A stretch of DNA of 64,000 nt from Callorhinchus milii (lineage: Eukaryota), in contig NW_024704743.1 of NCBI RefSeq assembly GCF_018977255.1, positions 5,086,001 through 5,150,000 of the forward strand. Reading direction: 5' to 3'. Position 1 is the stretch's first letter. Every line of letters begins with the position of its first letter. The translations under genes and the position numbers were made by a program. Positions 7,142 through 63,520 of the stretch are shown piece after piece. The notes beneath the pieces were generated by a model. The model searched no databases. It was not told the DNA's origin and saw only the letters and a list, made by a program, of their open reading frames with translations.

Positions 7142-8829
7142 GTGTACACAGGATTGACAATAGGCTCAGTCAAAGGTGTAGGCTTTAAAGTGGGATTTAA
7201 AGAGAGGGCAAGGGGGAGAGGCAGGGGAGTTCCAGAGGTTAGGGCACAGTTTTTTTTATAATCATTATTATTATTATTATTAAACTGAGGTCACATCTGC
7301 CTCTTCAGGTGGACATTAAAGATCCCATGGCACAATTCAAAAAAAGGGAATGTCTCCCGGTGTCCTGGCCAACAATCCCCCGAGGTAAAATGAGTCACTC
7401 ACTTAATGGCACTTTGTGGGACATTGCTGTGAGCATATTGGCTCTTCCAGATATTAGAGGCTTGAAGGGGTATGTTGCTAAGCCAGAGCATTGGGATTGA
7501 ATGAACAGCTTACTCTGAGAGTCAATGGGCCTCTTTTTATTAGCCGTACATTTCTACGATTCGATGAGATACACAGTCACTACACTTTACAGTAAACTCC
7601 TGTGAAGCCCTTTGAAACGTCTTCTCCACAGGATAGGGTTTTACATAAAAATGCAAGGATTAAATAAAAATTGGTCACTCCATCCACTCACTGTTTGCGG
7701 GGACGCTGCTGTGTGCAATTGGCTGCCACGTTTCACCCACAAAATGTACAGTCAATTCACTTTACAATGCATTCATTCTGTGAAGCGCTCTGAGGCGTCT
7801 CAGTGACATGATGAGGGGCTGTATCAAATGCGAGGATTATTATTATTTTTATTATAGCTCAGGACACCGACCCGAAACCGTCGCGCTATCGCTGCATCCC
7901 TACAAGCTCCACGGCTTCAGCGACACGGCCATTGAACCTGCTTGAGTAGATTTTTACTGACGCCCCATATCTCAGGAGAACCATGGCACAACCACAGGAT
8001 CATTAATAATGAAAACAAAGGAGCAGGTTTGAGGGGTAGGGGAGGAGCTGGGTTCACGTGGCAGTCAACCTGGAAGAGAAGGCAGCATTTTACTTTACTC
8101 CGAAACTCTGGAAAACCTTGAAACACAAGCCGAATAGAACCATTTCTTGCTCGTGAATTCTTACAGGAGCCAGCAGTCAATTCCCGTCAAAAATTAAACT
8201 TCTCTCAGTTATCTACAACCTCACGCTTGGCAATGAGTAAGAACGAATTCCAATGTAATTTCTCCAGCTCCTAGAAAACAGCGCTTGGGATGTTATCACA
8301 GAGAAACATTCCCGTTTTATTGCATTTATATAAGATGACAAACACTACAGCCACATTAGTCACAGAATCAGACCTCCCTGTCTCTTCTTCCAGTCACAGT
8401 TATTATTATAAAAATAACAATTTACGTTCAAGATTATTACAGGACAGAGCTCCGCAATGATCTTATACCAGAGTGTCTTTAGCTACGACACTGCTGTACA
8501 ACCACAGTCAAAAGAAAAACACTGACATTTTAAACAGGATGCAGTAGGGTTGGGATTGTGGAGAGGTTGAGATCAAATGGACCGAAGGGCCTTTGTCAAT
8601 CCAACCACTCTTGTGACCTTGTGGACTTGTTTTTAAAGAAGTCAGGTCACTTACTTCATGGCTGTTTATGGGACTAACCAGGGCGCAACTAGCTGCCACG
8701 TTTCGCCCACAAAATGCGCAGTCAATCGACTTTACAGTATATCCCATGAGGCACTTTGAGATGTCTCACTGACGTGATAAGGCGCTATATCAAAAGCAAA
8801 GATTATTATTATGAGACACCCACAGACTC

Positions 8830-13636: not shown

Positions 13637-16600
13637 TTACAAAACGAGCCAGGGTTCGATGAACGGGAATGTTTTTCTGCTTTGAAGCAACAATAAAAGG
13701 AATTCTGTTCCTAATTTTTTAAGCCTTTTACATCGGACACTCAGAAGAAATACGAACAGCACCTGGTAATGTATAGCACGGTAAGTGCTGGTGAAGGGAC
13801 ACAGGAATGCTCATCAAAATTGTAGCAATACAAATCAGTTAAAACACACCCACTCAATGGCTTGCCTCCAAACAATCATCTCTCACCTCCAAACATGTTT
13901 TCCTAATACCTCGTTCTAATCCCGTCTCTTTGTGGAATGTGAGCAACAAAGACATATGCGTTTCCACTTGAAACATAGGGAACCTGCCCTTCTAGGAGTC
14001 AATTTCTGCAGCCAAAGAGTCACGAGTTTAGCCACTGGGAGCGGAATCCTGTATATAGTTGTGAAATTAAATCAAATCAAATCGTTATTCACAGCTTTGA
14101 ATTTATGCATCAATTAGATTGCTTAGCCCTAACCTCTGGAACTCTCTGACTCAACTCCTCAGTCTCGCCCACTCTTTGTCTATCTTTAATTTCCACCTTA
14201 AGACCTCTTCGACCACTCTTATGGTCACCTCCCATCATTGCAACAAGGATGCAAGGCTTATTATTCATATTGGCTGCTACATTTGACCACAAAATGCAGT
14301 CACACCACTTTAATGGGTATGAGGTAAATTACAGTATCTGTGATGTGCTTTGAGGTGTCTCAACAAGATGGTTAAGGCACTATGCCAAGTGCAAAGATTA
14401 GTATTATTATGATGATTATTGTAGCTTCCTTTCAGACAGCCTGATTAATTCTGCTTCTATTGCTTTCTGGCGCATGAGCGCACTGTACGCTCACACAGTT
14501 TCTATGGGAATGCAAGTTGTTGTTGCTGTTGTTCACAACCCCAAGAAATCACAACCAGCAGAAAAAAGCAACAAGGATGTTTGAAGGATTAGAGCTCCAC
14601 ATTATTAGGAGTCTTCACAGAGCTGAACGTCTTCTCCCTGTTCTCCTTAGAGAAACCAGAATAGACAGTTTACGGGATCCCAGTCTTTAAACTGACAAGA
14701 AGCAGGACGAAGGAGGTGATAGGTTTAAGCATTAAAAATACAAAACTCTGATATCCCTCTGATGTAAAGCTCTACAAAGCACACGGCTATTATACTTTAC
14801 AGTGTCTCCTGTGAAACGCTTTGAGACGTCCTCCTGACGTGAAAGGCGCTATTATCAAATGTAAGGATTATTAATAAAACAAAAGTGGGCAAAGAACTTC
14901 CCTTTCGTCAGATTCCCTTGTTTAGGAGATTTACGCAATTTAAAGTCCCGACATTAAAGATATGGATAATGGCTGGGGTCTTTCACTTCAGACATAATAA
15001 TAATAATAATACTTGCATTTGATATAGCACTTTTCACGCCTTCGAGACGTCTCAAAGCGCTTCACAGAATATACTGTTAAGTGAATTGACTGTCTATTTG
15101 AGGGTAAAACACTTAGTTTCTCTTCTCACCCCCTCCATCACTTGCCAGACAAACTGAACCTTTGTTGGCTTCTAGATCTTGTAACATTGTACGGTTCTCT
15201 GATATAAAAACCCGACCTCTTGCACCTGTTTATTTCCCACTCCACCACCCACCGCCTCTCCTTGGCTGCCTCCGGCCTCCTGCATGTCCCTCATCCCCGC
15301 CGTTATACCATTGGCGGCCCTGCTTTCAGTCACTACACTCCGAAACTCTGGAACTCTCTCCCTCAATCCCTCCACCTTACTACCTCCCTCCCCATTTTCA
15401 GTTCACTCCTCTTCAATAGTGGCTAAGGTCACCTCCTCTGGGTCGGAGTCAAGCTTCACCACTGTTCAGCGCTCCGAGACGCTACCCTGCATGAAGGGCA
15501 CTATATAAATGCAAGCTGTTGTCATATAAGACACACATGCCACACTCTCTAATTTTTGCTCCTGTTGCTCTACTCAGGCAGGTTTTATTGCAGCAATTAA
15601 TCTCTTTGACTTTTGTGCGAGGTACTCGCAGAAAATGTTAGAACTCCAAATGATTCAAAAGAGATTTGATGTGATCAGAAACGACTGCGAAAATCAATGG
15701 CCTCTAAATCGCGGGAGTCTCAAAGGAATCGTAAGCTGTGAATTCCGTAAATAGTAAATAGTGAACGTGTCGACCCTCTGGAACTCCGCTCGGAAAGGCA
15801 AGTTCACGCAAATCGGCACTGAGACCATCACCCAAACAGATCCAGGATTCACTGCTTCCAGATATCCTGTGATGTACTTTGGGACATCTTTCCGAATGTG
15901 AAAGGAGCGATATAGTGCCTTATCGCGTTGTTGAGATGTTTCAAAACACTTCACAGAATACACCGTGAAGTGAATTAATTGACTGTATATTCACTTTACA
16001 GTATATTCTGTGAAGCGATATTATTATTATTAAGTGAGGCTGTATTTTCTAGACAAACGCAGATGACAATTTGCGCACAGCAATATCCCACAAACTGACA
16101 TGAGGCGAATTACCATTTTTTTATCTGGGGGATTGTTGACCAGGACAAACCCTATTCTCTTTTTGAATAGTGCCATGGGAAGTTTATCATCCACCGGGAC
16201 AGGCAAATAGGTTTAAAGCCTCATGCGAAGGACGAGAATCTAAGGAAGATCGTAGCTGTTTAAGAACTACAGAGCATTTGGACTTCCAGGTTCAAACTTC
16301 AAGGCAGATGGCCTAAAGGGATCTGAAAACTCTTAAGCCCTGAGGACTCTGCACTGAGACAGTCACTGAGCTCAGAATCAGGCCAACCCTCAGGCTCATC
16401 CTTCTTGCGCAAGCTGCTGGAAGGTAGCTCAGTGGCACTGGCACTCTGAACTAGACTTCTCTATCTCAGGAGAGGGGGGAAAAAACTAACTAAATCCTCT
16501 TATAAGCGCAATAAATAACTGTTCGCCAACAAATAATAATAATAGTAATCCTTACGTTTGGTACAGATGTACCAATTTGCGCAGAGCGGTGTTTCGCAAA

Positions 16601-40900: not shown

Positions 40901-43900
40901 AGCTTGGTGCAGTAATGGCAAGATGTTCAGGCTGGTATTCTGGAAGGATGAGATCAATAAGCCAAAGTGACTTCTTCATCTGTACCACTCTCCTGATTTT
41001 ACATTTTACCTTGTCATGACAGCATTATTTCAGTTCAAATATATGTACTCACTGTGGTAATCAGGGAATCTCCTCAGGCCTCCATTAAAGCAAGCGTCAA
41101 TGCAGTACTTAGAAATATTTCAGCACATTCTTGAATGCGTGAAAGATAGTACCTGGCAAGCAGATCTCAAGAAGTTAGCCAGTCTCCTGGAGTCAACATG
41201 CATAGCCACTGAATCAGAGGTCAATGTATCACTGGTGTTAGGACCTATTCGAGGAGAAAATACTTGGCATTAAAGGTCTAGTACAGGACAGCAACAAGAA
41301 CATCAATCCTGTTTATCAAAGGTCAAGGATTCATTTATATTTCCAAGTTGCAGATTGTAATATATTGTACCATGATAACTTGGAAGAAGATGTTAAAGAT
41401 GGTTTGAAAATATTTCATTTAGTATTGTACAACAACAGGTTAGCAGGATTTAAGAAGGTCGCAGAGGAAGAAAGAATACAGATTGTTACATATTACCATT
41501 CTTTCTTTACTTAAAGTAAACATTTGAAGCAGGAGTTTATAGTTGAGTCTCTGTGATTTCTATCTCAGGTCCATATTGAGAAATAGACTAATAAAATGTT
41601 TACAGCCTGGTCAGTGGGCCACATACAAGTTAATGTGAAGGGCACGGGAAGGGCGCTATATAAATGCAAGTTGTTGTTGGGTCTACGAATCTGGGTCATT
41701 AATGTAAACGAGCAACAGGAGGGGTCCCAGTCAAAGTCTCATGTCTAATGTAAATAATCCTAATTCAATTTACAAAATCAACAATAACAACTCGTATTTA
41801 TTCAGTGTCCTTCATTTAGTGCCATTCTTTCAAACACAGATTAAATAGTTTTCTTTTAGGAAATAATATTATAGGACATGGTACAAAGGTAGTTCGGGAC
41901 GTATGTGCATGCGACCGAACTAGATGGACCTTGGACGTTTTTGGTCAAGCATTTCTTATGTAGGATAACGTCCAGCCCAGTTTTTCTGGCTAATCAGCAT
42001 AACTTGGAAGGCCAGTGGGGCAGGTATTCTACTCACTCAGCTCCTATTAACCGTTCGAGCCAAAGCTTTAACATATAATAATAATCCTTACATTTGATAT
42101 AGTGCCTTATCACATCTTCGTGACATATCAAAGCACTTCACAGAATACACTGTAAAATGAATTGACTGTATATTTTCTGGGTGGAACGTGGTAGCCAATC
42201 GCGCACAGCAGTGTCCCACAAACAGTAGTGGATTGAGTGACCAAATCTTTTTTTAAAAAAGAGATTATTGCCCCCGGAAAGGCAATCCGCTAACAACCAG
42301 GTTCCTACTTACTGCGAGGTAAACAGAGGCGTGTGGAGTAAGGAAGCTTGCCTAATGTTTTGCCCAGCCCAGGAAATCGAACCCAGGTCCTGTCGCTTGC
42401 GAGCAAGTGCTCTAACCACTTAGATACAGGACTCCACATAGGGTGGTCCTAGCAGGACAAGCAGTGGAAAAGCTTCCGTGCAGTGTAGAATATCATCTCG
42501 GAGCGCTGAAGCACATAATGCATCTTACCCCCGCACACTAAGTTACTCTCTCCAGGATGTTGTGTCCACTTTTCCACAGTTTCTATTTCTTCAGTCTGAA
42601 TGTTTCGGTCAATATCATCTTCATTACACTGAATGTATGCCTATGGATAGTAATTCTCAATTCATAATACAGAAAGAGGTCAACCAGGTGTTTGATAGTT
42701 AATAATAATAATCCTTGCATTTGATATAGCACCTTATCACATTGTTGAGAAGTCTCGAAGCGCTTCACAGAATATAATGTAAAGTGAATTGACTGTATAT
42801 TTAGTTAAACAGAAATGCTAAGAATATGTTGTTCAACATAACTGAGAAATCTATATGTTAAGGGAAAGATCTCAACACTCATGTTTGGAACAAATATATG
42901 CTCATCATGTACATAATTCATTTCAGGAAGGAGTTTTTTTTTTGCTCCGCCAGGTGTCTAATACATGCGGAAACCGATCACCATGCTTAAGAGTAATTGT
43001 AATAATGCTCCTTGGATTTAATATAACGCCTTATCAAGTCTTCTAGACGAATCAAAGCGCGTTACAGAATATACTGTAAAGTGAATTGACTGTATATTTT
43101 GTGGGTGAAACGCACCAGCCAATCGCTCTGTATCCAAACAAAGCTGAGAGTACCACTCACCCATGCCTTCTACAAATGGAAATTTCCCATTCTGAAATAG
43201 TGTCTGTACTCTCTCCCCAAAGAGATGTACACTGCTTACCTAATTCTGGAAAGTATTAGGCGTAGGTTGGCAAGAGCCGACACTTGGGGACCCTGTAGTG
43301 TGTTTTGGAGTACTGCTGGGGTTTAACAAGTAAAATCACCTGAACACTGCCTGACAAGCTTTAAAAAGGATATTGATAAAGTTATGCAGGATCATAGTAC
43401 CATCATTGAAACTACAGTTAGGTTTCACTCACCTGAGTGAAACAGTGACTGTTTCAGTGGATTTGCATATGCCAGAACTAAGTGGTTATGTGTAGCTAAT
43501 TGTGCAAATTCCCTGGAACAGTGATCCATTCATTCATAGATATAATAAAAAAGTAATCCTTAGTTGGTTTATCACCTTTCACACAGGGAAGTGAAAGGTG
43601 CTTCACAGGATATACTGTAAAGTATACGTTCTGTATTTTCTCTGAGAAAAAGTGGCAGCCACTTTGCGCACAGCAATGTCCCAGAACACCCATAAAATGA
43701 ATGAATGACCAATTGTATTGGGGAGATTGTTGGCCAGGAGAAACTCCCTTCTCTTTTTTCAAATAGTGCCATGGGATTTTTCAACGTCCAGTTGAACAGG
43801 CAGATGGGACTTCGGTTTAACATCTCATGCGAGGACAGCACCTCCAACAACTTGCATTTACAAACCTGCTTGGTATTTGTTCGTCCAAAATTCTTGATGT

Positions 43901-52900: not shown

Positions 52901-55900
52901 CGATCAACAGAATGTTTAATCTGGAATCTATCTTAATTTGCCAGAATTTTCAGGACTCATATTTCTAAGATATTTTGCAATAAATCTTCAAGTTCTCTCC
53001 AATGCGTGGAATTCATTGGAGCTGAAAACTGGAACAAGCTCATATTTCAATTCCGCAGCTTGAATTTCAATCACTTGAAAAGAAGGTTTCATCTTGATGT
53101 TTCCACAGCATGGGTCAATTCTATTAAGGCGGTATATTTGTTCTGAGAAATTAAATTTATTTCTTGGTATAACTGCACGGTCCGTGGAAGCAGTGATCAG
53201 CTCTGGTGCAGATCCCTGATTGTCCAACGCCTTGGGACATCCTCCTGACGTGAAAGGCACTATACAAATATAATTTGTTGTTGTTGTTGTCTTCACCAAG
53301 TTTAATTAACTATAGTGGAAGTCCATGGTAAAATCCCTGTCCGTGCTTTGCATTCACTGCGCACGCACGCAGAAAGCCACCTCAAGGCGATATCTTTAAA
53401 TCAACTAAACATTGAGTAGTAACTTTTTGTTTACTTTTTAAAGGAAATCAATAATAAAGTTAAAGTTATAAATGAAACACATTTGCTATGTGGAATTACA
53501 AGAATCTTTTTTATAAGGGCGAGAGAAACATTGATTTTAAAACCACAGAAATGTTATGAGAGATAATCTCTTTGAAAAGCAAACTCTTTATCCAATGATA
53601 AATTCAGTAACAAATATTAGCAAAAATCTAACTTTAACTTTACTACATTAAATACAAACATAGCAATTATACCTTCATCTTCTTTTCTGGGTCGATGTTT
53701 TGAATGTTTGCCGCCATTCTCATGTTCTCGCTCTTTTTCTCGTTCCCGATGTCGATCCTTTTCTTTTTTCCTAGGTTTTTCTTTTTCCCTGTCTTTCTCA
53801 GACTTTTTATCCCTCTCTTTATGTCTGTCTATATGAGCATCTCTCTCTCCATCTTCATCAAAAACTCTTGGGTTTGGATCACTTTCTTGGCTCCTAACCT
53901 TATCTTTTGTCTCTCTCTTTCTCTATCTCTGATCTTATCCTTGTCTCGATCTCTTTCTTTAATTTGGTCCTTTTCACTGTCTCTGTCCCCATGTCGCTCT
54001 CTGTCCCTATCTTTTTTAGGCTCTCTGTCCCTTTCTCTTTTTGGATCCTCCTCTTGGTTTCTATCCCTGTCTTTATGTTTCTCCCGGTCCTTGTCTTTGT
54101 CCCTCACTCTGTCTTTATGATAGTCCTTTTCCTTTTCCTTGGGTCGACGCTCCCTAGATTCAGAGACACCACTCGCTTCCTCAACTTTACTCTTTCTCCT
54201 TTCTCTGCTCTTTGCATCAGCTTCTTCTGCATGATCTCCCTGAGCTGCCTGAAAACATAGAAAACAAAAGTAGCTTTTTCATTTCTATACTTCAGCCAAA
54301 CTGATTTCACTTTTACATAGATATTTAGGTTTGGTTGTGATGCCTTCACTCTCTCCCACCTTCCTATCTCTATAATCTTCTCCTACCCCACTCCTCTCCA
54401 TGCCTGCTTAACTAACTTGGGCTTCCTGTTTGTCCCTCATGCCACCAGTTGGGGCCGAGCCTCCAACTACTATATCCCTTAACATACTGAACTCCCTCCC
54501 TACACCTTTAGTTCACCTTTAAATCTGTCTTTAAATACCACCTAAAAACTTAACTCTTCAACGGTACCTATCGTCCCTTTCCCCCTTCTCCCTTGCTCAG
54601 CACTCAACCCGGTCATTATGACGAGCTTAGAGACATAATACTATGTGAAGGGCACTACATAAATGCAAGTTGTTGTTGCTGCTACATCATCACCCACCCT
54701 CCCATTCAAATGGCCTTACTCATCGGTGTCAAATAGGAATAAATAAGTATTTTATTGAACTATCCTACACACCTTTCAGTTAGGATGTAATAAGCAAATA
54801 AGGTACGGAAAACAGGCCTTTGAAGCACGTCTGTTCTACAACCATGGGTTCCCACCCACCCTATATCCTGGGGGAACGTATTGTAGAGATCCTCCCAGAA
54901 TCTCAAAATAATGAAGCAAATGCATGGTGCAACACTGGCCTCTTTTTGACTTGAATAGTGCCCCATAACTGGGGAACGTCATCGAATACTTCTCTTGCTC
55001 TCCTGACAAAATACAAGCGAAGGGTCATCATCTGATTTGTGATCCTTACCTCACCTCCAGCCTCCATACTTCCTTGTTCAGTCACAATCTTGCCTGCTTC
55101 TCCCTATTTCAAAATCAACACTACTAAGGTTACTGCTTCTCTGATTCAAAGATTTTAAACACAGTAAGTGTGGGGAGGAGAAAGATAATCTTGCATGTGC
55201 TTATCTTCCTCCCTACACCATATGGTGATTAAAATCAAGACTAATCATACTTTCTCCTACTCTTAACTCATTCTTTCCCCAGAACTCAAGACTGTAGAAC
55301 TCCCAGTCGTCCCTGCTTTGTACAATCTATATACTTTTTTTTAAAAAAAAACATATTTTCTTGATTTATTTGGTTTCTATTCTACTCTTTTTAAGCATTG
55401 GTAATGTCCTGACTGAATTTACCCCTCCCCAGCCCACAGGTCAATTGAAGTTTCTTAAATACTACACCAAGAATTTTAATATAAACTGAAAAATCAGACA
55501 TGCAGATTTCTGATGTATATGAGTTAGTACTACTATCTGGTACCCCAATTGAGTTTTATTTATAGAATGAGACATAATCAATTTAGTCCATGGGGAACCT
55601 ACAATCATACATATCATGGAGTCCTGTAGCTTGATGGTTAGAGCACTCACCTCGCGAGAAACCTGGGTTCAATTGCTGGCAGCGCGAAATGTTGGGCAAA
55701 GTTTCCTTACTCCACACGCCTGTTTACTTAGCAGTAAGTAGGAACCCGATAGTTAGTCAATTGGCAGATCGCTTTTCCAGGGGTAATAATTCGTTAAATA
55801 CATTTTTAAAAACAATTTGGTCACTCAATCCACGACTGTTTGTGGGACACTGCTGTGTGCAATTGGCTGCTACGTTTTGCCCACAAAATATACAGTCAAT

Positions 55901-58900
55901 TCACTTTACAGTATATTCTGTGAAGCGCTTTGAGCCGTCTCAAAGACGTGATAAGATGCTATATTAAATGCAAGGATTATTATTATTAGTCACAGAAACT
56001 GGTATCATGTAGCAATTGTTGATTTCAGTGGGAAAACAGGCTGTCCGTGCCACACAGACACAGCAAATACATATTAAATGTTATTTCATTACCTCTAGAG
56101 GCTGGATTCAGAATGCTTTTGTTTCTTTCTATTGGCTGAGATGAGTAGAAACCGAATAAATTAGTCTCAACCTAGTTCTCAGCTAACATGGCCCACAGCA
56201 TAAAAGAGTCAATGACTTGACACAATATTGACAATAACACTCCGAGAGAACTCAAGTGAATGGTGAAGCGCAAATAAATGCAGCACAGGTTATGACATGT
56301 ACAATGGCAATCAGTGAGTCTCAAGTCAACTGCATTTCACAACAGGCGCACGTGAACACTAACTCTTAAGTATGGCAATGGACTTCTGCAAAGCAGACCA
56401 AAGTAAAGAGAATATGCCATACATTTCATACTATCTGTAGCCCACCAGTAACTTGTATAGCACTCAACATTACAGGCATAGTTCACACTACTAAAGTTCA
56501 TTAAATCAACAGTGCAATAAGCATTCATTTCTAATTGCACCATTTGTGCCTATATCTAAACTAAAAAATAAATCTGTCTTAAATGTACGCTTACAATTCA
56601 CCTCCGACAATCCATTATTCCAGATTAATCTTTTGTTTTCAGAAAGAACACACTATTCTAACCTCACAACTTATTCTACATTCATACAGTGTTGTGAGTC
56701 TGGTCCATGATCAACTTGAGACATATCTGTGAAGCAACTAGTAATGATATGCCTTCTCTTCCTCCCCTTCCTGTCTCATCCTTCTGTTATGACTGCTCAA
56801 TGACTGCACCAGATTTTATAATCAATAATTACTTTAAGATGCCTCAGCAACTCTTCTGATTTCCAAGTGTCTTCTTTGGTTTTCCGCTGAAAGAAAAGTA
56901 AAAACAGAAGTAGTTATTAAAAATTGTTGTGGAATGTTTAAAAATGTATTTACAGACACAAATGCTACTCATTAAATCTTTCTATATTAACTTGCATGAA
57001 GAAACTATTGGAAAAGCAATGTACGATTATTTAAGGAATTATTACCCCTGGAAAATTGGAAAAGCGATCTGCCAATCGACTAACTATCGGGTTCCTACTT
57101 ACTGCTAGATTTATTTACTAAATTCTGCACAATGTTGAAAGAAACAAAATGAAAATACTGTATTTTCAGCAAAAAACATTACTATGTTTTTTAAAAATCA
57201 TAATAATGTTTTTGATTGAGAGTGTTGACATGACATGAATCATTGAAATTATGTAAAAAGAACAATTCAAAGGAAAATATATGAACACTTGGTGACTTGT
57301 AACAGTTACAATAATTATTGCTAACTTATTTTATCGTTCATTCTCCAACCAGATGCTGCTATTGCTACATAATATTGATGGGGGAAACAGAGAGTGGCCC
57401 TCCTTACCCCATTGTTTCATTTCTCAGTAAACTCAACCTTCTAATGAATTTGGGGTGAAAAGTCGTAGTCCAAGCAAAACTCCTGATAACTTATCCCTCC
57501 AAGAAAAAAGAGCCCATGGACGAGTAATCCGGAGTGACGAGTTAGACATATGTATCAATGCACAAACAAATCTGGACGGGATATTGACAGTATGATGACT
57601 TAAGTGGTGCTGACAGTTAAACCAGGGATGAGTTATTAGTTTACTGTATGGAAAGCAATATGCTCTGCCTCCATGTGTGACAAACCCCTATTATATAGAA
57701 TATTCCATTCTTTGTTAATTCTATCAGTCATAAATCATTGTGGTACTGTGTTTGTAACACAAGGCACAAAGTTGTTCTGTTTCCAGCAGTTATAGAGATA
57801 TGAAGCCGGATTTAAACATTTCTGTCCAAGCCACATCAAATTGGGCCAAAACACCATCTGATTTTGACATTTGGTATTTATAATTGATAGGGTGTCAGCC
57901 TAGCTTAGTTAATAACACTCTCACCGCCGAATCAGAAGGCTGTGGGTTAAAGTCCCACATCAAGAATTGGAGGTATCATCCTTTGGATGAGACATTAAAC
58001 CAAGATCCCACGGTATTGTTCAAAAACAGAGGGAGTTAGTTTGTCTTTGCTAACAATCCCCCAGATGCAGTTGTTCATTCATTTCTTGGCTGTTTGTGGG
58101 ACTTTGCCATGCGCAGATTGGCGACTGCTTTTGCCTGCAAATACAGACAAAAGCTGGCAACCAATTTGTGCATAACAAATAGCCGTATGGCAGTCATATG
58201 CAACTATTTGCACCAGCAAAATCCCACAAAACTGCCAGGTGGCTATCAACTAATGTGGAAAATTGTTAGCCAAGGCTCTCCCTTGTACTCTCAAATAGAA
58301 AATTGAGAAGAATGTATTCCAGTCTCAAACGATTCAGATGGTGCATCATCACAATCACAAGTTTTGCCGACAAAATATACAATCAATTCGCTTTACAGTA
58401 TATTCTGGGAAGCGCTTTGAGACGTCTCAACGATGTGATAAAGCACTATATTAAATGCAAGGATTATTATTATCAATCTTATCGTGGAGTCCTGTAGCTC
58501 AGTGGTTAGAGCACTCGCTTTGCAAGTGAGAGACCTGAGTTCAATTCCAGGCAGAGGGCGAAACCTTGGGCAAGTTTCCTTACTCCACACAGAGCCTAAT
58601 AATAATCCCTCCAAAACCAAAAACAATAATAAATCGGTCATTTTAAATCCACGACTGTTTGTGGGACATTGCTGTGCGCAATCGTCTGCCGCGTTCGCCC
58701 ACAAATATACAGTCACTTCACTTTACAGTGTGTTCTGTGAAGCGCTTTGGGACGTCTAAGAAGACGTGAAAAGCGCTGTATCAAATGCAACGATTACTAT
58801 TATTAATGCACATCTCCCCCTCTCCCTTAATAACAATCCTTGCGTTTAATATAGCGCCTTATCGCGCGGTTGAGACGTTTCAAAGCGCTTCGCAGAATAT

Positions 58901-59431
58901 ACTGAAAAGTGTGGACGAGACGCAGCACAAACTGCACCCACACAGAAGCCGCGGGGGATTGAGTGACCGAATCATCATTATTATTTTTTTTGAAGGGATC
59001 GTTTGCTCCCGAGAAAGCGATCCGCCGATCGACTAAAAAAAAAACCACACGGGTTCCCACTTACTGCCGAGTCACCAGAGGTGGTCAGGTGCGGAGTGAG
59101 GAAACATTGCCTGATGATGCCTTGGGCCCTCGGCCCGGGCGGGAATCGAACCCCCGGGGTCCTGCCACGGGATGTACCCCTCCTCTTCCCAAGCTCGCAG
59201 CCCGGGTGAGGAGGACAACCCCCAACCCCAACCCCACCCCCGATCGGCGCCAGTCTCCCCGCATCGCCCCATTCCCCAATTCCAGGCTTCCATTCCTCCC
59301 CCGGGGCCTCTGTCACCCTTTACACGAGACTTATTCGGACCCCAACGGCGTTGACCGGGAGGAAACAACAACAACCAGACAGACAGACAGACAGCTCCTC
59401 GGCTTTCACCCGTTACCTTGGTGGAGCGCAT
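22816..59431 (-). CDS. DYNC2I1: Dynein-2 intermediate chain 1 (WD repeat-containing protein 60), multi-exon CDS span
   Basis: 22 hand-assembled GT-AG exons sum to 3191 nt. Translation shows a charged N-terminus followed by motifs I recognise from WDR60 ([73 protein letters not shown]). All splice phases join except for one frame break inside exon 3. Confidence 0.96.
23288..23675 (-). mobile_element. tRNA(Ala)-derived SINE, long form
   Basis: Full-length copy in the last intron. Confidence 0.8.
24466..24689 (-). CDS. DYNC2I1: WDR60 exon ([11 protein letters not shown]...TRPAVFFV...WDLL)
   Basis: tttacag / gtaagt, 224 nt, phase 0-2. Confidence 0.95.
25693..25824 (-). CDS. DYNC2I1: WDR60 exon (GLVSHGT...[12 protein letters not shown])
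   Basis: ttaccag / gtaaga, 132 nt, phase 0-0. Confidence 0.95.
26323..26422 (-). CDS. DYNC2I1: WDR60 exon (...[21 protein letters not shown])
   Basis: ggtcag / gtaagt, 100 nt, phase 2-0. Confidence 0.95.
26690..27250 (+). mobile_element. L2 LINE 3' fragment
   Basis: [29 protein letters not shown] remnant, LWNSIP, (TTG)n tail. Confidence 0.85.
27251..27580 (-). mobile_element. tRNA(Ala)-derived SINE, short form
   Basis: Full-length copy lacking the internal segment. Confidence 0.85.
27775..28100 (+). mobile_element. tRNA(Ala)-derived SINE, short form
   Basis: Full-length copy. Confidence 0.85.
28447..28507 (-). CDS. DYNC2I1: WDR60 exon ([15 protein letters not shown])
   Basis: ttgtcag / gtagga, 61 nt, phase 1-2. 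Confidence 0.94.
28815..29360 (+). mobile_element. L2 fragment with RT remnant, nested in a Deu-SINE
   Basis: [11 protein letters not shown] (degenerate YADD) and [11 protein letters not shown]. Deu-SINE halves lie at about 28750-28815 and 29360-29550. Confidence 0.75.
30165..30216 (-). CDS. DYNC2I1: WDR60 exon ([17 protein letters not shown])
   Basis: tcttcag / gtatgt, 52 nt, phase 0-1. Confidence 0.94.
34228..34690 (-). mobile_element. L2 LINE 3' fragment
   Basis: [12 protein letters not shown] and LWNTLP remnants, (GTT)n tail. Confidence 0.8.
34717..34778 (-). CDS. DYNC2I1: WDR60 exon ([16 protein letters not shown])
   Basis: gtgcag / gtaagt, 62 nt, phase 1-0. Confidence 0.94.
35528..35641 (-). 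CDS. DYNC2I1: WDR60 exon (GVLTAVNHS...TSHE)
   Basis: ttatag / gtacga, 114 nt, phase 1-1. Confidence 0.93.
36040..37030 (+). mobile_element. CR1 3' end split by the L2 insertion
   Basis: The flanks rejoin as ttctttacacagaaggtaatcaatgactgaaacgggttgccaggaaag, matching the minus-strand CR1 copy at about 46590-46800. Confidence 0.7.
36151..36858 (+). mobile_element. 5'-truncated L2 LINE with GTAAT target-site duplication
   Basis: ORF2 C-terminus ([27 protein letters not shown]). gtaat at 36146-36150 and 36859-36863. Confidence 0.88.
38012..38174 (-). CDS. DYNC2I1: WDR60 exon (VQCCCFSP...VLWDLR...PTFST)
   Basis: gatgtag / gtgagt, 163 nt, phase 0-1, WD repeat. Confidence 0.95.
38552..38927 (-). 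mobile_element. tRNA(Ala)-derived SINE, long form
   Basis: Full-length copy. Confidence 0.85.
39554..39726 (-). CDS. DYNC2I1: WDR60 exon (RQVLCLHFS...KVLVCESA)
   Basis: tctgcag / gtttgt, 173 nt, phase 1-0. Confidence 0.95.
40085..40355 (-). mobile_element. L2 ORF2 fragment
   Basis: [18 protein letters not shown]. Confidence 0.8.
40472..40601 (-). CDS. DYNC2I1: WDR60 exon ([10 protein letters not shown]...LNTQLPFFH)
   Basis: ttggcag / gtaata, 130 nt, phase 0-1. Confidence 0.94.
41153..41244 (-). CDS. DYNC2I1: WDR60 exon (...[12 protein letters not shown])
   Basis: gaatag / gtacta, 92 nt, phase 1-0. Confidence 0.93.
42075..42437 (-). mobile_element. tRNA(Ala)-derived SINE, long form
   Basis: Full-length copy. 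Confidence 0.85.
42529..42640 (-). CDS. DYNC2I1: WDR60 exon (AYIQCNEDD...IQTEEIE...WTQHPGES)
   Basis: ccatag / gtaaga, 112 nt, phase 0-1. Contains a QT-type light-chain-binding motif. Confidence 0.95.
43545..43850 (-). mobile_element. Deu-domain SINE abutting a splice donor
   Basis: The Deu domain begins about 20 nt into the intron after the donor at 43865. Confidence 0.75.
43866..43995 (-). CDS. DYNC2I1: WDR60 exon ([15 protein letters not shown]...NTKQ)
   Basis: tttgcag / gtttgt, 130 nt, phase 2-0. Confidence 0.95.
45114..45225 (-). CDS. DYNC2I1: WDR60 exon (...[14 protein letters not shown]...NRQ)
   Basis: aatcag / gtgggt, 112 nt, phase 1-2. Confidence 0.92.
45588..46195. mobile_element. 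Composite non-autonomous element(s), Helentron/DINE-like
   Basis: aaaactag start, (caga)n followed by tttatatat, internal tandem units, tttattagtgaagat end. Confidence 0.35.
46306..46507 (-). CDS. DYNC2I1: WDR60 exon (DYADDFEE...[12 protein letters not shown]...KEPKS)
   Basis: gcaaag / gtacta, 202 nt, phase 0-1. Confidence 0.93.
47108..47182 (-). CDS. DYNC2I1: WDR60 exon (EIEKEE...YEDDFE)
   Basis: ttctctag / gtattt, 75 nt, phase 0-0. Confidence 0.93.
47738..47764 (-). CDS. DYNC2I1: Possible 27-nt WDR60 micro-exon (DKKDKSTRK)
   Basis: aaacag / AAG|gtaaat, frame-preserving, charged like the neighbouring exons. Pyrimidine tract is weak. Confidence 0.4.
49271..49603 (-). mobile_element. tRNA(Ala)-derived SINE, short form, young
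   Basis: Full length with a long (AAT)n tail. Confidence 0.85.
49742..50098 (-). CDS. DYNC2I1: WDR60 exon 5 (ISEESREKK...WETEPNE)
   Basis: ttaacag / gttagt, 357 nt, open, phase 0-0. Confidence 0.88.
50807..50889 (-). CDS. DYNC2I1: WDR60 exon 4 ([28 protein letters not shown])
   Basis: gtttcag / gtgagt, 83 nt, phase 1-0. Confidence 0.88.
51270..52202 (+). mobile_element. Internally deleted hAT (Charlie/Buster group) DNA transposon
   Basis: TIRs cagtcgtggccaacc / ggttggccatcgctg. Imperfect 8-bp TSD ctttaatg / gcttaatg. Transposase C-terminal remnant present. Confidence 0.85.
51871..52053 (+). pseudogene. hAT transposase C-terminal dimerisation-domain remnant
   Basis: [59 protein letters not shown] resembles FGSTYxCEQxFSxM..K.KxRSxLTDxHL...QxSH*. 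Confidence 0.8.
53673..54248 (-). CDS. DYNC2I1: WDR60 exon 3, charged R/D/E/K-rich, with an internal frame break
   Basis: gttttcag acceptor, gtataa donor. Length is 576 nt (3n) but the flanking phases (0 in, 1 out) require 3n+1. Confidence 0.85.
55618..55988 (+). mobile_element. tRNA(Ala)-derived SINE, long form
   Basis: Full-length copy. Confidence 0.85.
56833..56886 (-). CDS. DYNC2I1: WDR60 exon 2 ([18 protein letters not shown])
   Basis: ttctttcag acceptor, gtaatt donor, 54 nt, phase 0-0. Confidence 0.93.
58485..58806 (+). mobile_element. tRNA(Ala)-derived SINE, short form
   Basis: Full-length copy. Confidence 0.85.
58828..59165 (-). mobile_element. SINE long form, GC-shifted
   Basis: Recognisable tail, body and B box with many extra G/C bases. 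Confidence 0.75.
59417..59431 (-). CDS. DYNC2I1: WDR60 coding exon 1 (MRSTK)
   Basis: cagc ATG CGC TCC ACC AAG | gtaacg, inside the CpG island. A 5-codon first exon parallels the human MEPGK start (from memory). Confidence 0.85.
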
Positions 59432-59493
59432 GCTGCGGGCGCCACCGCCGCCGTTGCTATGTTCCGCGGACTCCTGGTTACCAGGCAGCCGCC

Positions 59494-59505
59494 GCCGCCA
59501 TCTTG
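59494..59505 (-). promoter_or_regulatory. YY1 site
   Basis: CAAGATGGCGGC on the minus strand, the canonical YY1 motif. Confidence 0.65.
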
Positions 59506-59536
59506 ATGCGATTCCCCGCCTGAGGCTGTGGAAAGC

Positions 59537-59546
59537 GCGCATGCGC
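59537..59546. promoter_or_regulatory. NRF1 site
   Basis: Perfect palindrome GCGCATGCGC about 105 nt upstream of the ATG. Confidence 0.65.
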
Positions 59547-59692
59547 CCAGCGCCACCGGGCGACTGCGTCAGGTCGTCCCGGCAACGACGCCAACGAGCT
59601 CGCCGCGTGAACGTCATCACGCTCCCCCCCCCCACTACCCCACTCCCCCCCACCATCACCCCCATCTTTTTGCGTTCCTTCGTAAAAAACAA

Positions 59693-60037
59693 TACGTCTC
59701 AAAGCGCTTCGCAGAACGTGCTGCGAAGCGATGGGACGTGAACCGACCGACCGCGTGTTCTCGTGGGCGAAACGCGGCGGCCGACGGCGCACCGCAGCGT
59801 CCCCCGCAAACAGTCAGTCGTGGATTGAAGCGACCAATTTATTTGGTTTTTTTTTGGGAAGGAATTATTACGCTCCCAGAAAAGCGATCCGCCAATCGAC
59901 TAACAAGCGGGGTTCCTACTTGCTGCTGGGTAACCAGAGGCGACTTGCCCAACATTTCATTTGGCCCTGCCCGAGGATCAAACCCAGGTCCCTCGCTTGC
60001 GAGGCGAGCGCTCTGACCGCTGCGCTGCAGGACTCCC
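59693..60037 (-). mobile_element. SINE long form, strongly GC-shifted, within the promoter
   Basis: Colinear with the other copies from tail to the gcaggactcc head. Confidence 0.8.
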
Positions 60038-60211
60038 ACTCCTCTTATTCAACAGATCTGATGTATCACGTTAAAAGATTTCCTTCATTTTAATGTTTGC
60101 CTTGAACGATGTGCTATTTTAAGTGCCCAAGCCATTTTTTTTTTCAAGAATGCAAAAGTGGTTGTATTTCTTAAACTGGCTGCATTTCTACTTCCGATAT
60201 CATTAATCGTA

Positions 60212-60268: not shown

Positions 60269-60592
60269 ATTAATAATAATAATAATAATAATAATAATCC
60301 TTGCATTTGATATAGCGCTTTTCATATCTTCTAGACGTCTCAAAGCACTTCACAGAATATACTATAGAGTGAATTGACTGTATATTTGTGGGCGAATGCA
60401 GCAGCCAATTGCGCACAGCAATGTCCCACAAACAGTCGTAGATTGAAAATGACCAATTTATTATTGTTTTGTTTTGGAGGGATTATTATTAGGTGTGTGG
60501 AGTTAGGAAACTTGCCCAAGGTTTCGCCCTCTGCCTGGAACTGAACTCAGGTCTCTCACTTCCAAAGCGAGTGCTCTAACCACTGAGCTACA
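60269..60592 (-). mobile_element. tRNA(Ala)-derived SINE, short form, young
   Basis: Near-consensus copy with a long (AAT)n tail. Confidence 0.85.
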
Positions 60593-61059
60593 ATGAACAG
60601 CAGGATATTCATTTTCAGAGCTGTGCACAGTAGGGATTGTAAGCAATAACTATTCTTACTGGTTTGGAAATATCACTGATGATGGTGAGAACTAAAGTGA
60701 AGAATAATAATAATAACAACCCTAATAATAATAATCCTTGCATTTGATATAGCGCTTTTCAGGTCGGGAGGACGTCCCAAAGCGCTTCACAGAATATACT
60801 GTAAAGTGAATTGACACTATATTTTGTGGGCGAAGGTATATTTTGTCTTTGAAGAAATCAAATCTAAATCAGTGAGGCTGACTCATTTCATTTTCAATTT
60901 TCATTTTTAATATAACTTTAAAATGAGATACAGAGTCACAACACTTTACAGGAAATACTGCAAAGCCTAGTCACTCAATCGCAAATGTTTGTGGGATACT
61001 GCTGTGCGCAATTGGCCTCCACAATTATAGGGTCAATCATTCTACAGTATATTCTGTGA

Positions 61060-61560
61060 AATCATTCAAAACTCTGCCGCCCGCATTCCCATCCGCATGA
61101 AACTCCGCTCCCCGACCACCCCAGTCCTCGCCAGACTGCACTAGCTGCCTATCCCGGAGAGGATCGATTTCAAGATCCTCACCCTTGTATTCAAGCCCCT
61201 GCACTCCTCTGCACCCCCCTACCTTTCTGACCTCCTCCCTCTTCAAAACAGTGCCCGTTGCCTCCATTCCTCCAGGTCTGGCCTCCTCCTTGTCCCCCGA
61301 GTCCTCCGCTCCACCCTCGGCAGCCGTGCCTTCAGCCACTATGCCCCGAGGCTCTGGAACTGCCTTCCTGACTCCCTTAGTCTCGCTCCCTCCCTTTCTA
61401 TTATCAGGTCTCTGCTGAAGACCTTTCTTTTCGACCGCACCTTTGGTCACCTTCCCCCCCCCTCCCCCTGGCTCGGTCCTGGGATCCGTTACTGTGAAGC
61501 GCTCTGAGACGCCGTCCGGCGTGGAGGGCGCTATATAAATCCAAGTTGTTGTTGTTGTTG
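61060..61560 (+). mobile_element. L2 3' fragment nested in a SINE tail
   Basis: IQNSAAR..RIDFKIL remnant, (GTT)n tail. The SINE tail resumes after 61560. Confidence 0.8.
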
Positions 61561-62299
61561 AAGGGCTGTGAAGAGACATCTTGAAGGCATGATAAGGCAC
61601 TATATCAAATGCATGGATTATTATGATTATTATTTTCCCCCATTTTTTACATTTTTTTTCACACTCCATTCTTTGTGTGTTTTTTCTCAGCAATTAATTT
61701 TTCGTTTTTTGGGGGTATTTTTTCACAGCGTATTTTCGCATTTGTCTCAGTTTTTTTTTGCATCTTTCCTTTTAAAACAATTTTAGCGAAAGAGAGATTG
61801 AGAGGGAGAAAGAGCGTGTGAGTGTGAGGAAGAACGTGAGAGAAAGTGTGAGAGAGTGAGTGTGTATGAAAGAATATGAGAGCACAAAACTGCGTACCCT
61901 AATCACTCCACTCCAGTCCTTGCCAATCTCCACTGGTTCCCAATTACCAAACAGATCAATTTCAAGCTCCTCTCACTCTGCCTCTCTGTGTCTCTCTCTT
62001 CCTCTCATCTCTTTTTTTCTCCTCTCTCTGTATAAATATTTCTTACTCTCCCTCTTTCTCCGCTTTTTCCTCCTACCTCTTCTTCCCGCTTCTCGCTCCA
62101 TCCTCTCTCTATATATTTCTTCCTCTCTGCTCTCTCTTTTCCTTCTCCTCTCGTTCAGCTCATCTTTCATCTAAGTATATCTCTTGCTCTTTCTCCTCCT
62201 CCTCCTTTTTTTTTTCCTATTTTTCCTCCTCTTTTTCTCCTCCTTCCTTTCTCTCCTCTATTCCACACTCTCCCTCACTCTTCCTCTCTTTTTGTTTTG

Positions 62300-62905
62300 C
62301 TTAACCGGGTGACTGAAACATGCGGCGACCCGTCGTCACGCTCAAGAACCTCCAAACCAAACAGATCCGTGTGCAGCCCACCTACACATGGAAATTCCCA
62401 TTGCAGATCGTTTGGAAGTCGCACTCTCACTTTCCCTGGAGGGACGCATCACGCTTACCTCATTCCGGAGAGCATCAGGTACAGGATGCTTAAGAGCCGA
62501 GGCTTGCTGAGCTCAGAGTGTGTGCGTTGGGGTGACTGCTGGAGTCTAACCAGCTAAAACCACGCAGCTCGCCATCGAGAGCGCTGTCCTGGCAATCTTT
62601 CCCACTGCTTCTCCAGCTGGGACCACCCAACCCATTTGAGGCTTTGGCTTGCGGGGTTAACGGGAGCTGAGCGGATTGACTCCCTGCCGCCAGCGATTGG
62701 TCTGCCCTTCCGGTTCCTGCCGGTGAGCCAAGCCGGGCTGTGCTGTTAGCGGATACTGCGGACCCGCCTGCCTCAGGTGCCCAATGACTGGAGACCGTCA
62801 CCGAGGGCCGGCTGAGTCCCGACCCAACTGTCCAGCGCCTCGCGACGTCCTCCCGACGTGAAGGGCGCTCTACAAATGCAAACTTGTTGTTGTTGTTGTT
62901 GTTGA
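62300..62905 (+). repeat. Unidentified dispersed repeat followed by an L2-type tail
   Basis: Homologous segments at about 4900-5130, 18495-18550, 37580-37720 and 42945-43360. Confidence 0.65.
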
Positions 62906-62978
62906 CAGTCCGTTGCCAAACATGTCACCTTGGAGCCGGTTCAGCTTCAGGGAGAACCCGCTTACACCCCACCCCAGG

Positions 62979-63014
<36 letters not shown>

Positions 63015-63384
63015 TAAAAAAGTAATAATAATCCTTGCATTTGATGTAGCGCCTCATTCAGTTGCTGAGTCGTCTCGAAGCGCTTCACAGAATATACTGC
63101 GAAGTGTAGCGACTGCGTATTTTGTGGGCGAAACGCCACAGCCAATTGGGGGGGGGGTGGCGGCGGGGCGGAGGGGGGGGGGTGGCGGGGCGGGGGGGGT
63201 GGGGTGTGGGCGAGAGCTCCACATTGTCAGAGACACCGTCCTTCGGGTGAGACCATAAAATCTCACTCCCCGTCCGTGCCCCGTTCGGGGCGGACATTAA
63301 AGATCTCGCTCAGCGTTGTCGGTGATGGGGGGGGGGGAGCGGTGTGGGGGGTGGGGGGGGGTGTCTTGGGCTGATAATCTGCCA

Positions 63385-63520
63385 CTTATCTCTCTCCCAC
63401 TCACCCCTCTCCTCTCTCCCTTTCTCATTACCCCACTCCCCCCCCCTCCCCTCACTCCCTCCCCCATCTCCCTCACTCTCTCTCTCTCTCTCCTCCCACT
63501 GGTTCTCTCTCCTGATACTG

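What the first reader, a model, noticed from the sequence alone, without database searches (positions are those of the whole stretch)
59693..60037. SINE copies at the promoter show one-way AT-to-GC rewriting, a possible gBGC hotspot footprint
Seen: typical copies read gcttcacagaatatactgtaaagtgaattgactgtatatttgtgggcgaaacgcggcagccaattgcgcacagcagtgtcccacaaac. This copy reads gcttcgcagaacgtgctgcgaagcg..aaccgaccgaccgcgtgttctcgtgggcgaaacgcggcggccgacggcgcaccgcagcgtcccccgcaaac. Nearly every change is A/T to G/C, including TA>CG and TT>CC, so it is not just retention of ancestral CpG. The copy on the other side of exon 1 (58828-59165) shows the same trend, while the young-looking copy at 60269 does not. 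Established: GC-biased gene conversion fixes weak-to-strong changes at recombination hotspots, and without functional PRDM9 hotspots sit at promoters and CpG islands. Inference: a long-lived promoter hotspot is converting SINEs into CpG island, so SINE copies could be used to map historical recombination in this lineage.
Basis: partly seen in the sequence, partly recalled or inferred. Interest (0 to 1): 0.7.

Follow-up and report, generated by a model that had tools for sequence, protein, structure and literature searches.

The report
GC-shifted SINEs flanking WDR60 promoter
Two old copies of a common short repeat on either side of the first exon of the WDR60 (DYNC2I1) gene have gained far more G/C than their sister copies, most likely through recombination-linked GC-biased gene conversion in an unmethylated promoter, a process known in dogs and birds and here probably seen in a chimaera.

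Summary
Observation confirmed. The SINE at 59692-60037 lies just upstream of exon 1 of WDR60/DYNC2I1, inside a 1.1-kb CpG island. After curation it shows 22 A/T>G/C against 2 G/C>A/T changes; eight sister copies show 46 against 54 (p=3e-5; strict set 17:2, p=4e-4). It ranks first of 66 hits. GC-conservative changes are not raised. Older and sister copies carry A/T at these sites, and the two island copies share no more changes than chance, so neither retained ancestral CpG nor a GC-rich subfamily explains it. Qualifications: part of the quoted stretch is a 46-bp palindrome probably made by template switching; 10 of 17 to 14 of 22 changes create CpG, more than context-blind conversion predicts; the non-CpG signal alone is weak (p=0.012-0.05); the 58828 copy is noisy (20:8). 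Best reading: gBGC plus CpG protection at an unmethylated promoter (0.55). Recombination, methylation and allele frequencies were untestable. PRDM9 loss is neither shown nor needed. The process and the repeat-as-probe idea are known; the lineage (probably elephant shark, inferred) is the new part. The scan noted the same pattern before at CAMK2D in this genome.

The parts
59692..60037 (-). GC-shifted copy of the long tRNA-derived SINE subfamily, 3' tail missing; A-box region altered
   Evidence: matches the long family at 6 of 7 diagnostic columns; Rfam tRNA score 30.1 bits against 51.7-58.8 for the three best sister copies
59700..59815 (-). Most GC-shifted part, facing the promoter: 24 CpG in 142 nt (model columns 211-330) against 0-6 in eight sister copies
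   Evidence: W>S 11 of 32 in columns 211-285, 2 of 34 in columns 111-184; 20 CpG in 59701-59800
59694..59739 (.). 46-bp imperfect palindrome extending the SINE's own tail hairpin, with a short insertion that copies the opposite arm; probable template-switch event
   Evidence: 19 of 24 columns match; I3: 13-nt arms, 92%; 10-bp stem, z=-2.58, 5 of 200 shuffles as good
58828..59154 (-). Second long-subfamily SINE copy, in intron 1, more diverged, W>S 20 against S>W 8
   Evidence: one contig of run X2 covers 58882-59223 with 1 other letter
58971..60070 (.). CpG island, GC 0.60, CpG observed/expected 1.04, the largest of 14 such patches called in the window; its non-repeat core 59160-59690 is GC-rich on its own
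   Evidence: no homologue of 59160-59690 elsewhere in the window
59417..59431 (-). Coding part of the probable exon 1 of WDR60/DYNC2I1 (MRSTK, then GT donor at 59416); an upstream ATG at 59501 opens a 7-codon frame
   Evidence: in frame with the exon starting at 56886; run X5 (RNA is a guess) covers 59437-59555 at depth 10 and 59080-59317 at about 0
59497..59546 (.). YY1-like site (59497) and NRF1-like site (59537), each found once in the window in that orientation
   Evidence: motif patterns and names are recalled, not from a call
56818..56886 (-). Probable exon 2 of WDR60 (starts RKTKEDTW after an AG); its 3' end was not fixed
42524..42640 (-). Downstream exon that identifies the gene as WDR60/DYNC2I1
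   Evidence: only match, 6rlb_C residues 531-569, E=8.9e-14
60269..60595 (-). Short-subfamily SINE copy outside the island, no GC shift (1 W>S, 4 S>W)
58486..58810 (+). Short-subfamily SINE copy at the island edge, 5 W>S and 1 S>W, 14 CpG; a copy far from the island (49272) also has 5 W>S and 14 CpG, so this is not distinctive

Best explanation
Two ordinary SINE copies inserted beside the WDR60 promoter and were absorbed into its CpG island. Steps: (1, shown) they derive from the same AT-richer family as copies elsewhere. (2, shown) After insertion they gained different A/T>G/C changes at about 4-5 times the sister-copy rate, with no rise in GC-conservative changes. (3, inferred) The island is unmethylated in the germline, so old and new CpGs persist. 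(4, inferred) Meiotic recombination is concentrated at such a promoter and heteroduplex repair favours G/C, a fixation bias of roughly B=1.5-2.5 over background for the target, with wide limits. (5, inferred) One or two template-switch or slippage events at the tail hairpin copied some changes and added the insertion. The result extends the island outward by a few hundred bases without needing selection.
For: W>S 22 of 105 against 46 of 1040 (p=2e-8), strict 17 of 96 against 45 of 973 (p=1e-5). Non-CpG W>S to S>W 8:2, 7:2 and 6:1 against 28:54, 35:53 and 180:217 (p=0.012, 0.037, 0.052); both copies pooled 19:10 (p=0.019). W>S transversions 9 of 203 against 11 of 1040 (p=0.002); GC-conservative 5 of 353 against 27 of 1792 (p=1.0). 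Log odds ratio for the target 2.15 (0.77-3.53), non-CpG only 1.55 (0.06-3.04). Simulations with B=3-4 reach W>S>=22 with S>W<=2 in 7.5-58% of 400 runs; B=0 never does. Ancestral CpG columns decayed in 2 of 47 against 33 of 213 (p=0.056). A second CpG-rich zone at 62.3-63.4 kb shows 12:1 (p=0.003). Precedent: dog CpG islands (PMC4350167), promoter hotspots in many mammals (PMC11161765), GC gain at canid TSSs (PMC11323403), unmethylated TSSs in an otherwise methylated elephant shark genome, somatic tissues (PMC5437953).
Against: CpG-making changes are in excess of context-blind placement: 14 of 22 against 6.9 expected (P=0.0014); strict 10 of 17 against 5.1 (P=0.01), falling to P=0.10 if TpG/CpA transitions are weighted 2x. 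[quoted passage not shown] In the pile-up the non-CpG W>S rate in the three CpG-rich zones is not raised (12 of 240 against 180 of 4445, p=0.50). S>W is not significantly reduced in the target alone (2 of 78, p=0.15) and not reduced when both copies are pooled (10 of 150, p=1.0). Non-CpG p-values do not survive correction for 66 hits. Across 66 hits the net score does not track flanking GC (rho 0.03, p=0.81). No recombination, methylation or frequency data were available.
Confidence: 0.55

Rival explanations
1. Selection for CpG or GC density: the copy next to the TSS was co-opted as part of the promoter island, and CpG-creating alleles were favoured.
For: 59-64% of W>S changes create CpG; 21 of 33 in the three CpG-rich zones against 37 of 217 in background; 24 CpG in 142 nt on the promoter-facing side.
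Against: The copies are more diverged than their sisters, with indels and a lost tail, so there is no sign of constraint. Non-CpG and transversion W>S are raised too in the HMM alignment. The CpG excess weakens to P=0.10 under a 2x context weight and is absent in the 58828 copy (7 of 19, P=0.18).
Confidence: 0.18
2. Local mutation bias: open, transcribed, unmethylated chromatin at the TSS has a mutation spectrum tilted to G/C (for example more T>C at TpG), plus templated events, with no fixation bias.
For: TSS-centred hypermutation is reported in humans (PMC13712754, abstract and Discussion). The 58828 copy has more changes of every class (S>W 8 of 72, conservative 4 of 170). A templated palindrome is present.
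Against: The target has 1 conservative change in 183 sites and 2 S>W in 78, so its general mutation load is not raised. The same paper needs gBGC as well to explain GC peaks at TSSs.
Confidence: 0.13
3. The copies descend from a rare GC-rich subfamily or an older CpG-rich master element.
For: Published consensus alignments could not be read and no genome was held, so a rare subfamily is not excluded. Both copies share a T>G at model column 115 that 8 of 8 long copies lack.
Against: Shared W>S changes 4 against 3.2 expected (p=0.40). The target matches the long family at 6 of 7 diagnostic columns, and older-type copies are mostly A/T at 19 of the 21 target columns listed (column 282 is mostly C and column 290 is mixed). 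The A-box region is altered and the tRNA score is low. In run X2, 78-98% of laid depth reads A/T at the 4 listed W>S positions (59991, 59976, 58864, 58867), and depth over the target's bins is 25-708 times below a young copy's bin (contig depth is no copy number).
Confidence: 0.06
4. Hypomethylation alone: CpGs simply did not decay.
For: Ancestral CpG columns are better kept (2 of 47 decayed against 33 of 213, p=0.056), and most gains are CpG.
Against: Simulations with CpG decay switched off gave a mean of 5-14 W>S with 6.5-17 S>W, and 0 of 400 runs at each of three ages reached 22:2. Decay in sisters is only 15% per site, too little to hide a 4-5-fold gain.
Confidence: 0.05
5. Assembly or sequencing artefact.
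For: No listed contig piece spans the core 59692-59992 (one search shows 32 of about 333,000 pieces).
Against: Contigs of run X2 match 58882-59223 with 1 other letter and 59993-60143 with none. Errors would not be one-directional or CpG-forming.
Confidence: 0.02

Closest known systems
gBGC at CpG islands in dogs (Berglund et al. 2015, PMC4350167; passages read)
   Same: W>S-biased, accelerated substitution in promoter-type CpG islands; interaction of low methylation and gBGC enlarges or creates islands.
   Different: Dogs have a proven PRDM9 loss, SNP data and recombination maps. Here there is one locus, polarised by repeat copies, with no map and unclear PRDM9 status.
PRDM9-independent hotspots in placental mammals (Joseph et al. 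2024, PMC11161765; first part and passages read)
   Same: A gBGC signature at hypomethylated promoter-like sites used as a record of past recombination; B taken from the logit difference in equilibrium GC.
   Different: They exclude CpG sites and average over thousands of loci with three-species alignments. With CpG sites excluded, this locus alone gives only weak support. They find such hotspots in species with intact PRDM9.
GC peaks at TSSs (Qiu et al. 2024, PMC11323403, passages; Qiu et al. 2026, PMC13712754, abstract and Discussion)
   Same: A GC peak a few hundred bases wide around the TSS, attributed to past gBGC plus local mutation.
   Different: The 2024 paper reports that in shark the DNA around exon 1 is near the genome average, and gives no substitution data for it. 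Here the flanking repeats are themselves GC-shifted.
Repeat copies as probes of base-composition evolution (Webster et al. 2005 on Alu; seen only as a title in the reference list of PMC2292697, content recalled)
   Same: Copy-versus-consensus substitution counts used to infer biased gene conversion.
   Different: As recalled, that work was at regional scale in humans, not at single promoters in a cartilaginous fish.
CmiSINEs (SINE2-1_CM, SINE2B-1_CM) and SacSINE1-CM of Callorhinchus milii (Luchetti et al. 2017, PMC5499810; parts 2-3 of 6 read)
   Same: tRNA-Ala head, a 3' part shared with an older family, very high copy number.
   Different: No direct comparison with the published consensus was possible. 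The parts read describe no GC-rich subfamily or GC shift near promoters.

Membership tests
gBGC footprint at a promoter (PRDM9-independent) hotspot | Excess of W>S over S>W at non-CpG sites | tested here: met
   Weakly: 8:2, 7:2, 6:1 against 28:54, 35:53, 180:217 (p=0.012, 0.037, 0.052); does not survive correction for 66 hits
gBGC footprint at a promoter (PRDM9-independent) hotspot | GC-conservative substitutions not raised | tested here: met
   5 of 353 against 27 of 1792, p=1.0; low power
gBGC footprint at a promoter (PRDM9-independent) hotspot | S>W rate depressed | tested here: inconclusive
   target 2 of 78 (p=0.15); pooled 10 of 150 (p=1.0); pile-up zones 4 of 134 against 217 of 2571 (p=0.022)
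gBGC footprint at a promoter (PRDM9-independent) hotspot | [quoted passage not shown] | tested here: inconclusive
   CpG-making excess P=0.0014, 0.01 strict, 0.10 with a 2x context weight; none in the 58828 copy
gBGC footprint at a promoter (PRDM9-independent) hotspot | Location in a CpG-island promoter | tested here: met
   TSS position inferred, not mapped
gBGC footprint at a promoter (PRDM9-independent) hotspot | Germline hypomethylation | not testable with these tools
   indirect only: CpG o/e 1.04, 2 of 47 ancestral CpG columns decayed
gBGC footprint at a promoter (PRDM9-independent) hotspot | Elevated recombination; derived G/C alleles at higher frequency | not testable with these tools
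   one DNA run of organism A laid, as contigs
   No genome. For C. milii, PMC5519329 lists KRAB-SET without SSXRD, no rapid evolution, no testis expression detected; PMC8892340 counts it as complete
CmiSINE (SINE2-1_CM / SINE2B-1_CM) | tRNA-Ala-derived head | tested here: met
   Rfam tRNA hit on the target; 4 of 5 ARAGORN calls in the window are tRNA-Ala on sister copies
CmiSINE (SINE2-1_CM / SINE2B-1_CM) | CORE domain and L2-2_CM-like tail matching the published consensus | not testable with these tools
   supplement not available; the target's tail is truncated
Distinct GC-rich SINE subfamily | Diagnostic changes shared between copies | tested here: not met
   4 shared against 3.2 expected, p=0.40
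Distinct GC-rich SINE subfamily | Further copies with the same changes elsewhere in the genome | tested here: inconclusive
   none among 67 other hits in the window; 78-98% of laid depth reads A/T at 4 listed sites, 31 rows not shown; no genome-wide search possible

The most novel reading that the evidence does not exclude
In holocephalans the promoter fixation bias is context-dependent and favours CpG-creating alleles, as a glycosylase-type repair of T:G mismatches in CpG context would, unlike the context-blind bias reported for humans. Unmethylated promoters would then turn neighbouring SINEs into CpG island on their own, and the several hundred thousand SINE copies would give both a historical recombination map and a read-out of the repair pathway in a lineage for which my searches listed no recombination map.
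Probability: 0.12. Interest if true: 0.65.

Novelty: new member of a known kind. Interest (0 to 1): 0.36.

Why it matters
If gBGC is the cause, this is a local footprint of promoter-centred recombination in a cartilaginous fish whose PRDM9 status is disputed in print (PMC5519329 against PMC8892340). The SINE family has about 300,000 copies in C. milii (PMC5499810), many near genes, so one genome would be enough to ask whether recombination sits at promoters in this lineage and whether the bias prefers CpG. The locus also carries a methodological warning: hairpin-templated changes and CpG gains make up much of the eye-catching signal and must be removed before such a map is drawn. As a single locus it proves little.

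Tried and rejected
Genome-wide test: no genome is held, so all counts rest on the window's 74 profile hits. I dropped 5 hits before counting (reverse-strand or rearranged matches caused by the SINE's internal palindrome) and 3 more from the ranking for having under 40 firm sites; short-subfamily copies are split into two hits each. Orthologues in relatives: runs X14 and X16 (organisms B, C) hold the SINE family in great numbers, and paralogues swamped the target, so no orthologous copy could be read; 3 differences in one X16 contig at 59592-59598 and 10 near exon 2 are unpolarised and were not used. No RNA holder is listed as such; X5 is RNA by guess only. Correlation of net GC shift with flanking GC: none (rho 0.03, n=66); with flanking CpG o/e rho 0.34, p=0.005, but this includes the island copies and was not recomputed without them. 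The L2-like fragment at 61100-61650 and the copies at 60270-61100 show no shift (4:5 and 5:5). No target-site duplication was apparent in the flanks printed (by eye). The published consensus could not be compared because the supplement of PMC5499810 was unavailable; it may bear on the subfamily question. A by-sequence look-up of earlier findings returned nothing, and none were listed near this place. Literature: 10 searches. The one joining cartilaginous fish, shark, recombination and gBGC listed 6 papers, none a fine-scale study by title; the whale shark paper (PMC13100897, passages) says direct recombination maps are still needed. Subscription papers are not in the library, so absence from print is not established.

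Full report
Setting. No genome is held for this window. A profile built from 8 full-length copies finds 74 SINE hits in 64 kb. The full-length copies have tRNA-Ala-like heads and fall into a long form with an internal block of about 70 bp and a short form without it; an older type shares only the 3' part. This anatomy fits the CmiSINE and SacSINE1-CM families described for Callorhinchus milii (PMC5499810, parts 2-3 of 6 read). The four best-holding runs have 886-963 million letters of contigs, and earlier scan notes call the genome elephant shark. The species is therefore inferred, not tested.

The gene. An exon at 42524-42640 matches WDR60/DYNC2I1 and nothing else (E=8.9e-14). A minus-strand ATG at 59431 gives MRSTK and a GT donor, in frame with an exon starting at 56886. 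YY1-like and NRF1-like sites lie at 59497 and 59537 (motifs recalled). A CpG island covers 58971-60070 (GC 0.60, o/e 1.04), the largest of 14 patches called. Its non-repeat core is GC-rich on its own, so the island is not just the two SINEs. Run X5, RNA by guess, covers the exon-1 bin and not the two intron bins at 59080-59317. The target ends roughly 150-200 bp upstream of the probable start.

The observation. Against the 8 long copies the target has 37 W>S and 4 S>W; the 8 copies, each left out in turn, total 75 and 128. I then kept only columns where at least 70% of the 67 other hits agree (5 palindrome-derived or rearranged hits dropped), and removed the A/T tract, the hairpin zone, columns where 10% or more of copies show CpG, and bases within 2 of an indel. 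The target keeps 22 of 105 W sites changed to S and 2 of 78 S sites changed to W; controls have 46 of 1040 and 54 of 752 (p=2.8e-5), and it has the highest net score of 66 hits. Removing the whole palindrome and slippage zone leaves 17 of 96 and 2 of 74 (p=3.9e-4). A BLAST pile-up that uses no profile gives 15:1 against 217:217. The intron copy at 58828-59154 gives 20:8, 19:8 and 6:2; several of its changes are adjacent swaps that look like alignment shifts. The 60269 copy gives 1:4 but belongs to the short subfamily. Contigs of run X2 match 58882-59223 with one other letter and 59993-60143 with none; no listed piece covers the core.

Ancestral CpG and subfamily. At the target's TG>CG and CA>CG sites the other copies are almost all A/T, for example 30 A and 0 G at column 214, 48 T and 1 C at column 312. 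Older-type copies are mostly A/T at 19 of 21 columns listed; column 282 is mostly C and column 290 mixed, and both were left out of the curated counts. The target sides with the long family at 6 of 7 diagnostic columns. W>S transversions, which cannot be reversed CpG decay, are 9 of 203 in the two copies against 11 of 1040 (p=0.002). The two copies share 4 W>S changes where 3.2 are expected. Changes in the head alter the A-box region and the tRNA score drops to 30.1 bits, which argues against an active master. In run X2, 78-98% of laid depth reads A/T at the four W>S positions listed, with 31 rows not shown.

First, 59694-59739 is a 46-bp imperfect palindrome (19 of 24 columns). One template switch could have copied some of these changes, and the neighbouring triple CGGT looks like slippage. 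The same hairpin is rearranged in another copy at 15925-16065. Second, most changes create CpG: 14 of 22 against 6.9 under random placement (P=0.0014), and 10 of 17 against 5.1 in the strict set (P=0.01). This falls to P=0.10 if transitions at TpG/CpA are weighted 2x, close to the 1.9x seen in the long controls but not in all copies. Columns 211-330 hold 24 CpG against 0-6 in the sisters. The non-CpG signal alone is 8:2, 7:2 or 6:1 (p=0.012, 0.037, 0.052), and in the pile-up the non-CpG W>S rate of the CpG-rich zones is not raised (12 of 240 against 180 of 4445).

Mechanism. Forward simulations with control-like rates and CpG decay switched off never reached 22:2 (0 of 400 at each of three ages). 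Adding a context-blind fixation bias of B=3-4 reached it in 7.5-58% of runs but gave 14 or more CpG-making changes in at most 2.5%. GC-conservative changes are unchanged (5 of 353 against 27 of 1792), so age or general hypermutation does not explain the target. The log odds ratio, which estimates B over background, is 2.15 (0.77-3.53), or 1.55 (0.06-3.04) for non-CpG changes. A fixation bias toward G/C is the simplest account, and gBGC at an unmethylated promoter is its best-known source: dog islands (PMC4350167, passages), promoter hotspots in many mammals (PMC11161765, first part and passages), GC gain at canid TSSs (PMC11323403, passages). Elephant shark somatic DNA is methylated at SINEs and unmethylated at expressed TSSs (PMC5437953, passages). 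I put this reading at 0.55, selection for CpG at 0.18, local mutation bias at 0.13 (PMC13712754, abstract and Discussion), subfamily at 0.06, hypomethylation alone at 0.05 and artefact at 0.02. The CpG excess is the loose end. [quoted passage not shown]

PRDM9. For C. milii one paper lists KRAB and SET without SSXRD, no rapid zinc-finger evolution and no detected testis expression (PMC5519329, passages); a later one counts the gene as complete (PMC8892340, passages). Promoter hotspots also occur in species with intact PRDM9.

Extent. A second CpG-rich zone at 62.3-63.4 kb shows 12 W>S against 1 S>W in its repeats, 7 of them CpG-making (p=0.003; non-CpG p=0.10), while repeats at 60270-61650 show 5:5 and 4:5. 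The shift is therefore local to CpG-rich patches, not a smooth regional gradient. Across 66 hits the net score does not follow flanking GC (rho 0.03) and follows flanking CpG o/e modestly (rho 0.34, island copies included). An earlier scan note describes the same pattern at CAMK2D in this genome; I did not check that locus.

Verdict. The feature is real and well beyond chance. It works like the GC-biased footprint known at promoter islands of dogs and other vertebrates; membership cannot be settled without recombination, methylation or frequency data. Reading such bias from repeat copies is an existing idea (Webster et al. 2005, seen as a reference title in PMC2292697; content recalled). My 10 literature searches listed no fine-scale gBGC or recombination study in a cartilaginous fish, and the whale shark paper calls for such maps (PMC13100897, passages); the library lacks most subscription papers. 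New member of a known kind, interest 0.36.

Noticed in passing
window 62290-63400: Second CpG-rich zone about 3 kb upstream of exon 1 whose repeats are also GC-shifted (12 W>S, 1 S>W; SINE tail at 63021-63148). It may be the edge of another promoter; human WDR60 is head to head with ESYT2 (recalled, not tested).
   Followed up: partly
window 15909-16146: SINE tail fragments rearranged into a long fold-back around the same internal hairpin (z=-3.75); another probable template-switch product.
   Followed up: partly
window 59675-59692 and 59847-59864: The sequence that replaces the target's missing tail resembles an inverted copy of its own internal A/T tract (18 nt, 83% complementary, I2), hinting at a further fold-back or an old inverted fragment.
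   Followed up: no
window 59789-59799 and 60018-60028: Head and body of the target have become 10 of 11 complementary (I6); by eye the family majority is about 7 of 11. Chance among GC-rich words was not tested.
   Followed up: no
window 59478-59501: An upstream ATG inside the YY1-like site opens a 7-codon frame (MAAAAAW) 70 bases before the probable WDR60 start codon.
   Followed up: no
window 59556-59674: One contig of organism C aligns in the unique promoter core with 3 listed differences, so this part may be conserved; two GGCAAC half-sites at 59581 and 59590 recall RFX X-boxes of ciliary genes (motif recalled, no full match).
   Followed up: no
window 57028-57110 and 55617-55990: A short SINE fragment near exon 2 nearly matches the internal block of the 55617 copy, including a shared variant; possible local duplication.
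   Followed up: no
window 7663-7849: A SINE fragment inside the gene body ranks second for net GC shift (9 W>S, 1 S>W; flanking CpG o/e 0.67), away from any known promoter.
   Followed up: no
window 59371-59675: The X2 contig over exon 1 differs from the window by 26 gap letters and 2 other letters, so the promoter carries length variation.
   Followed up: no
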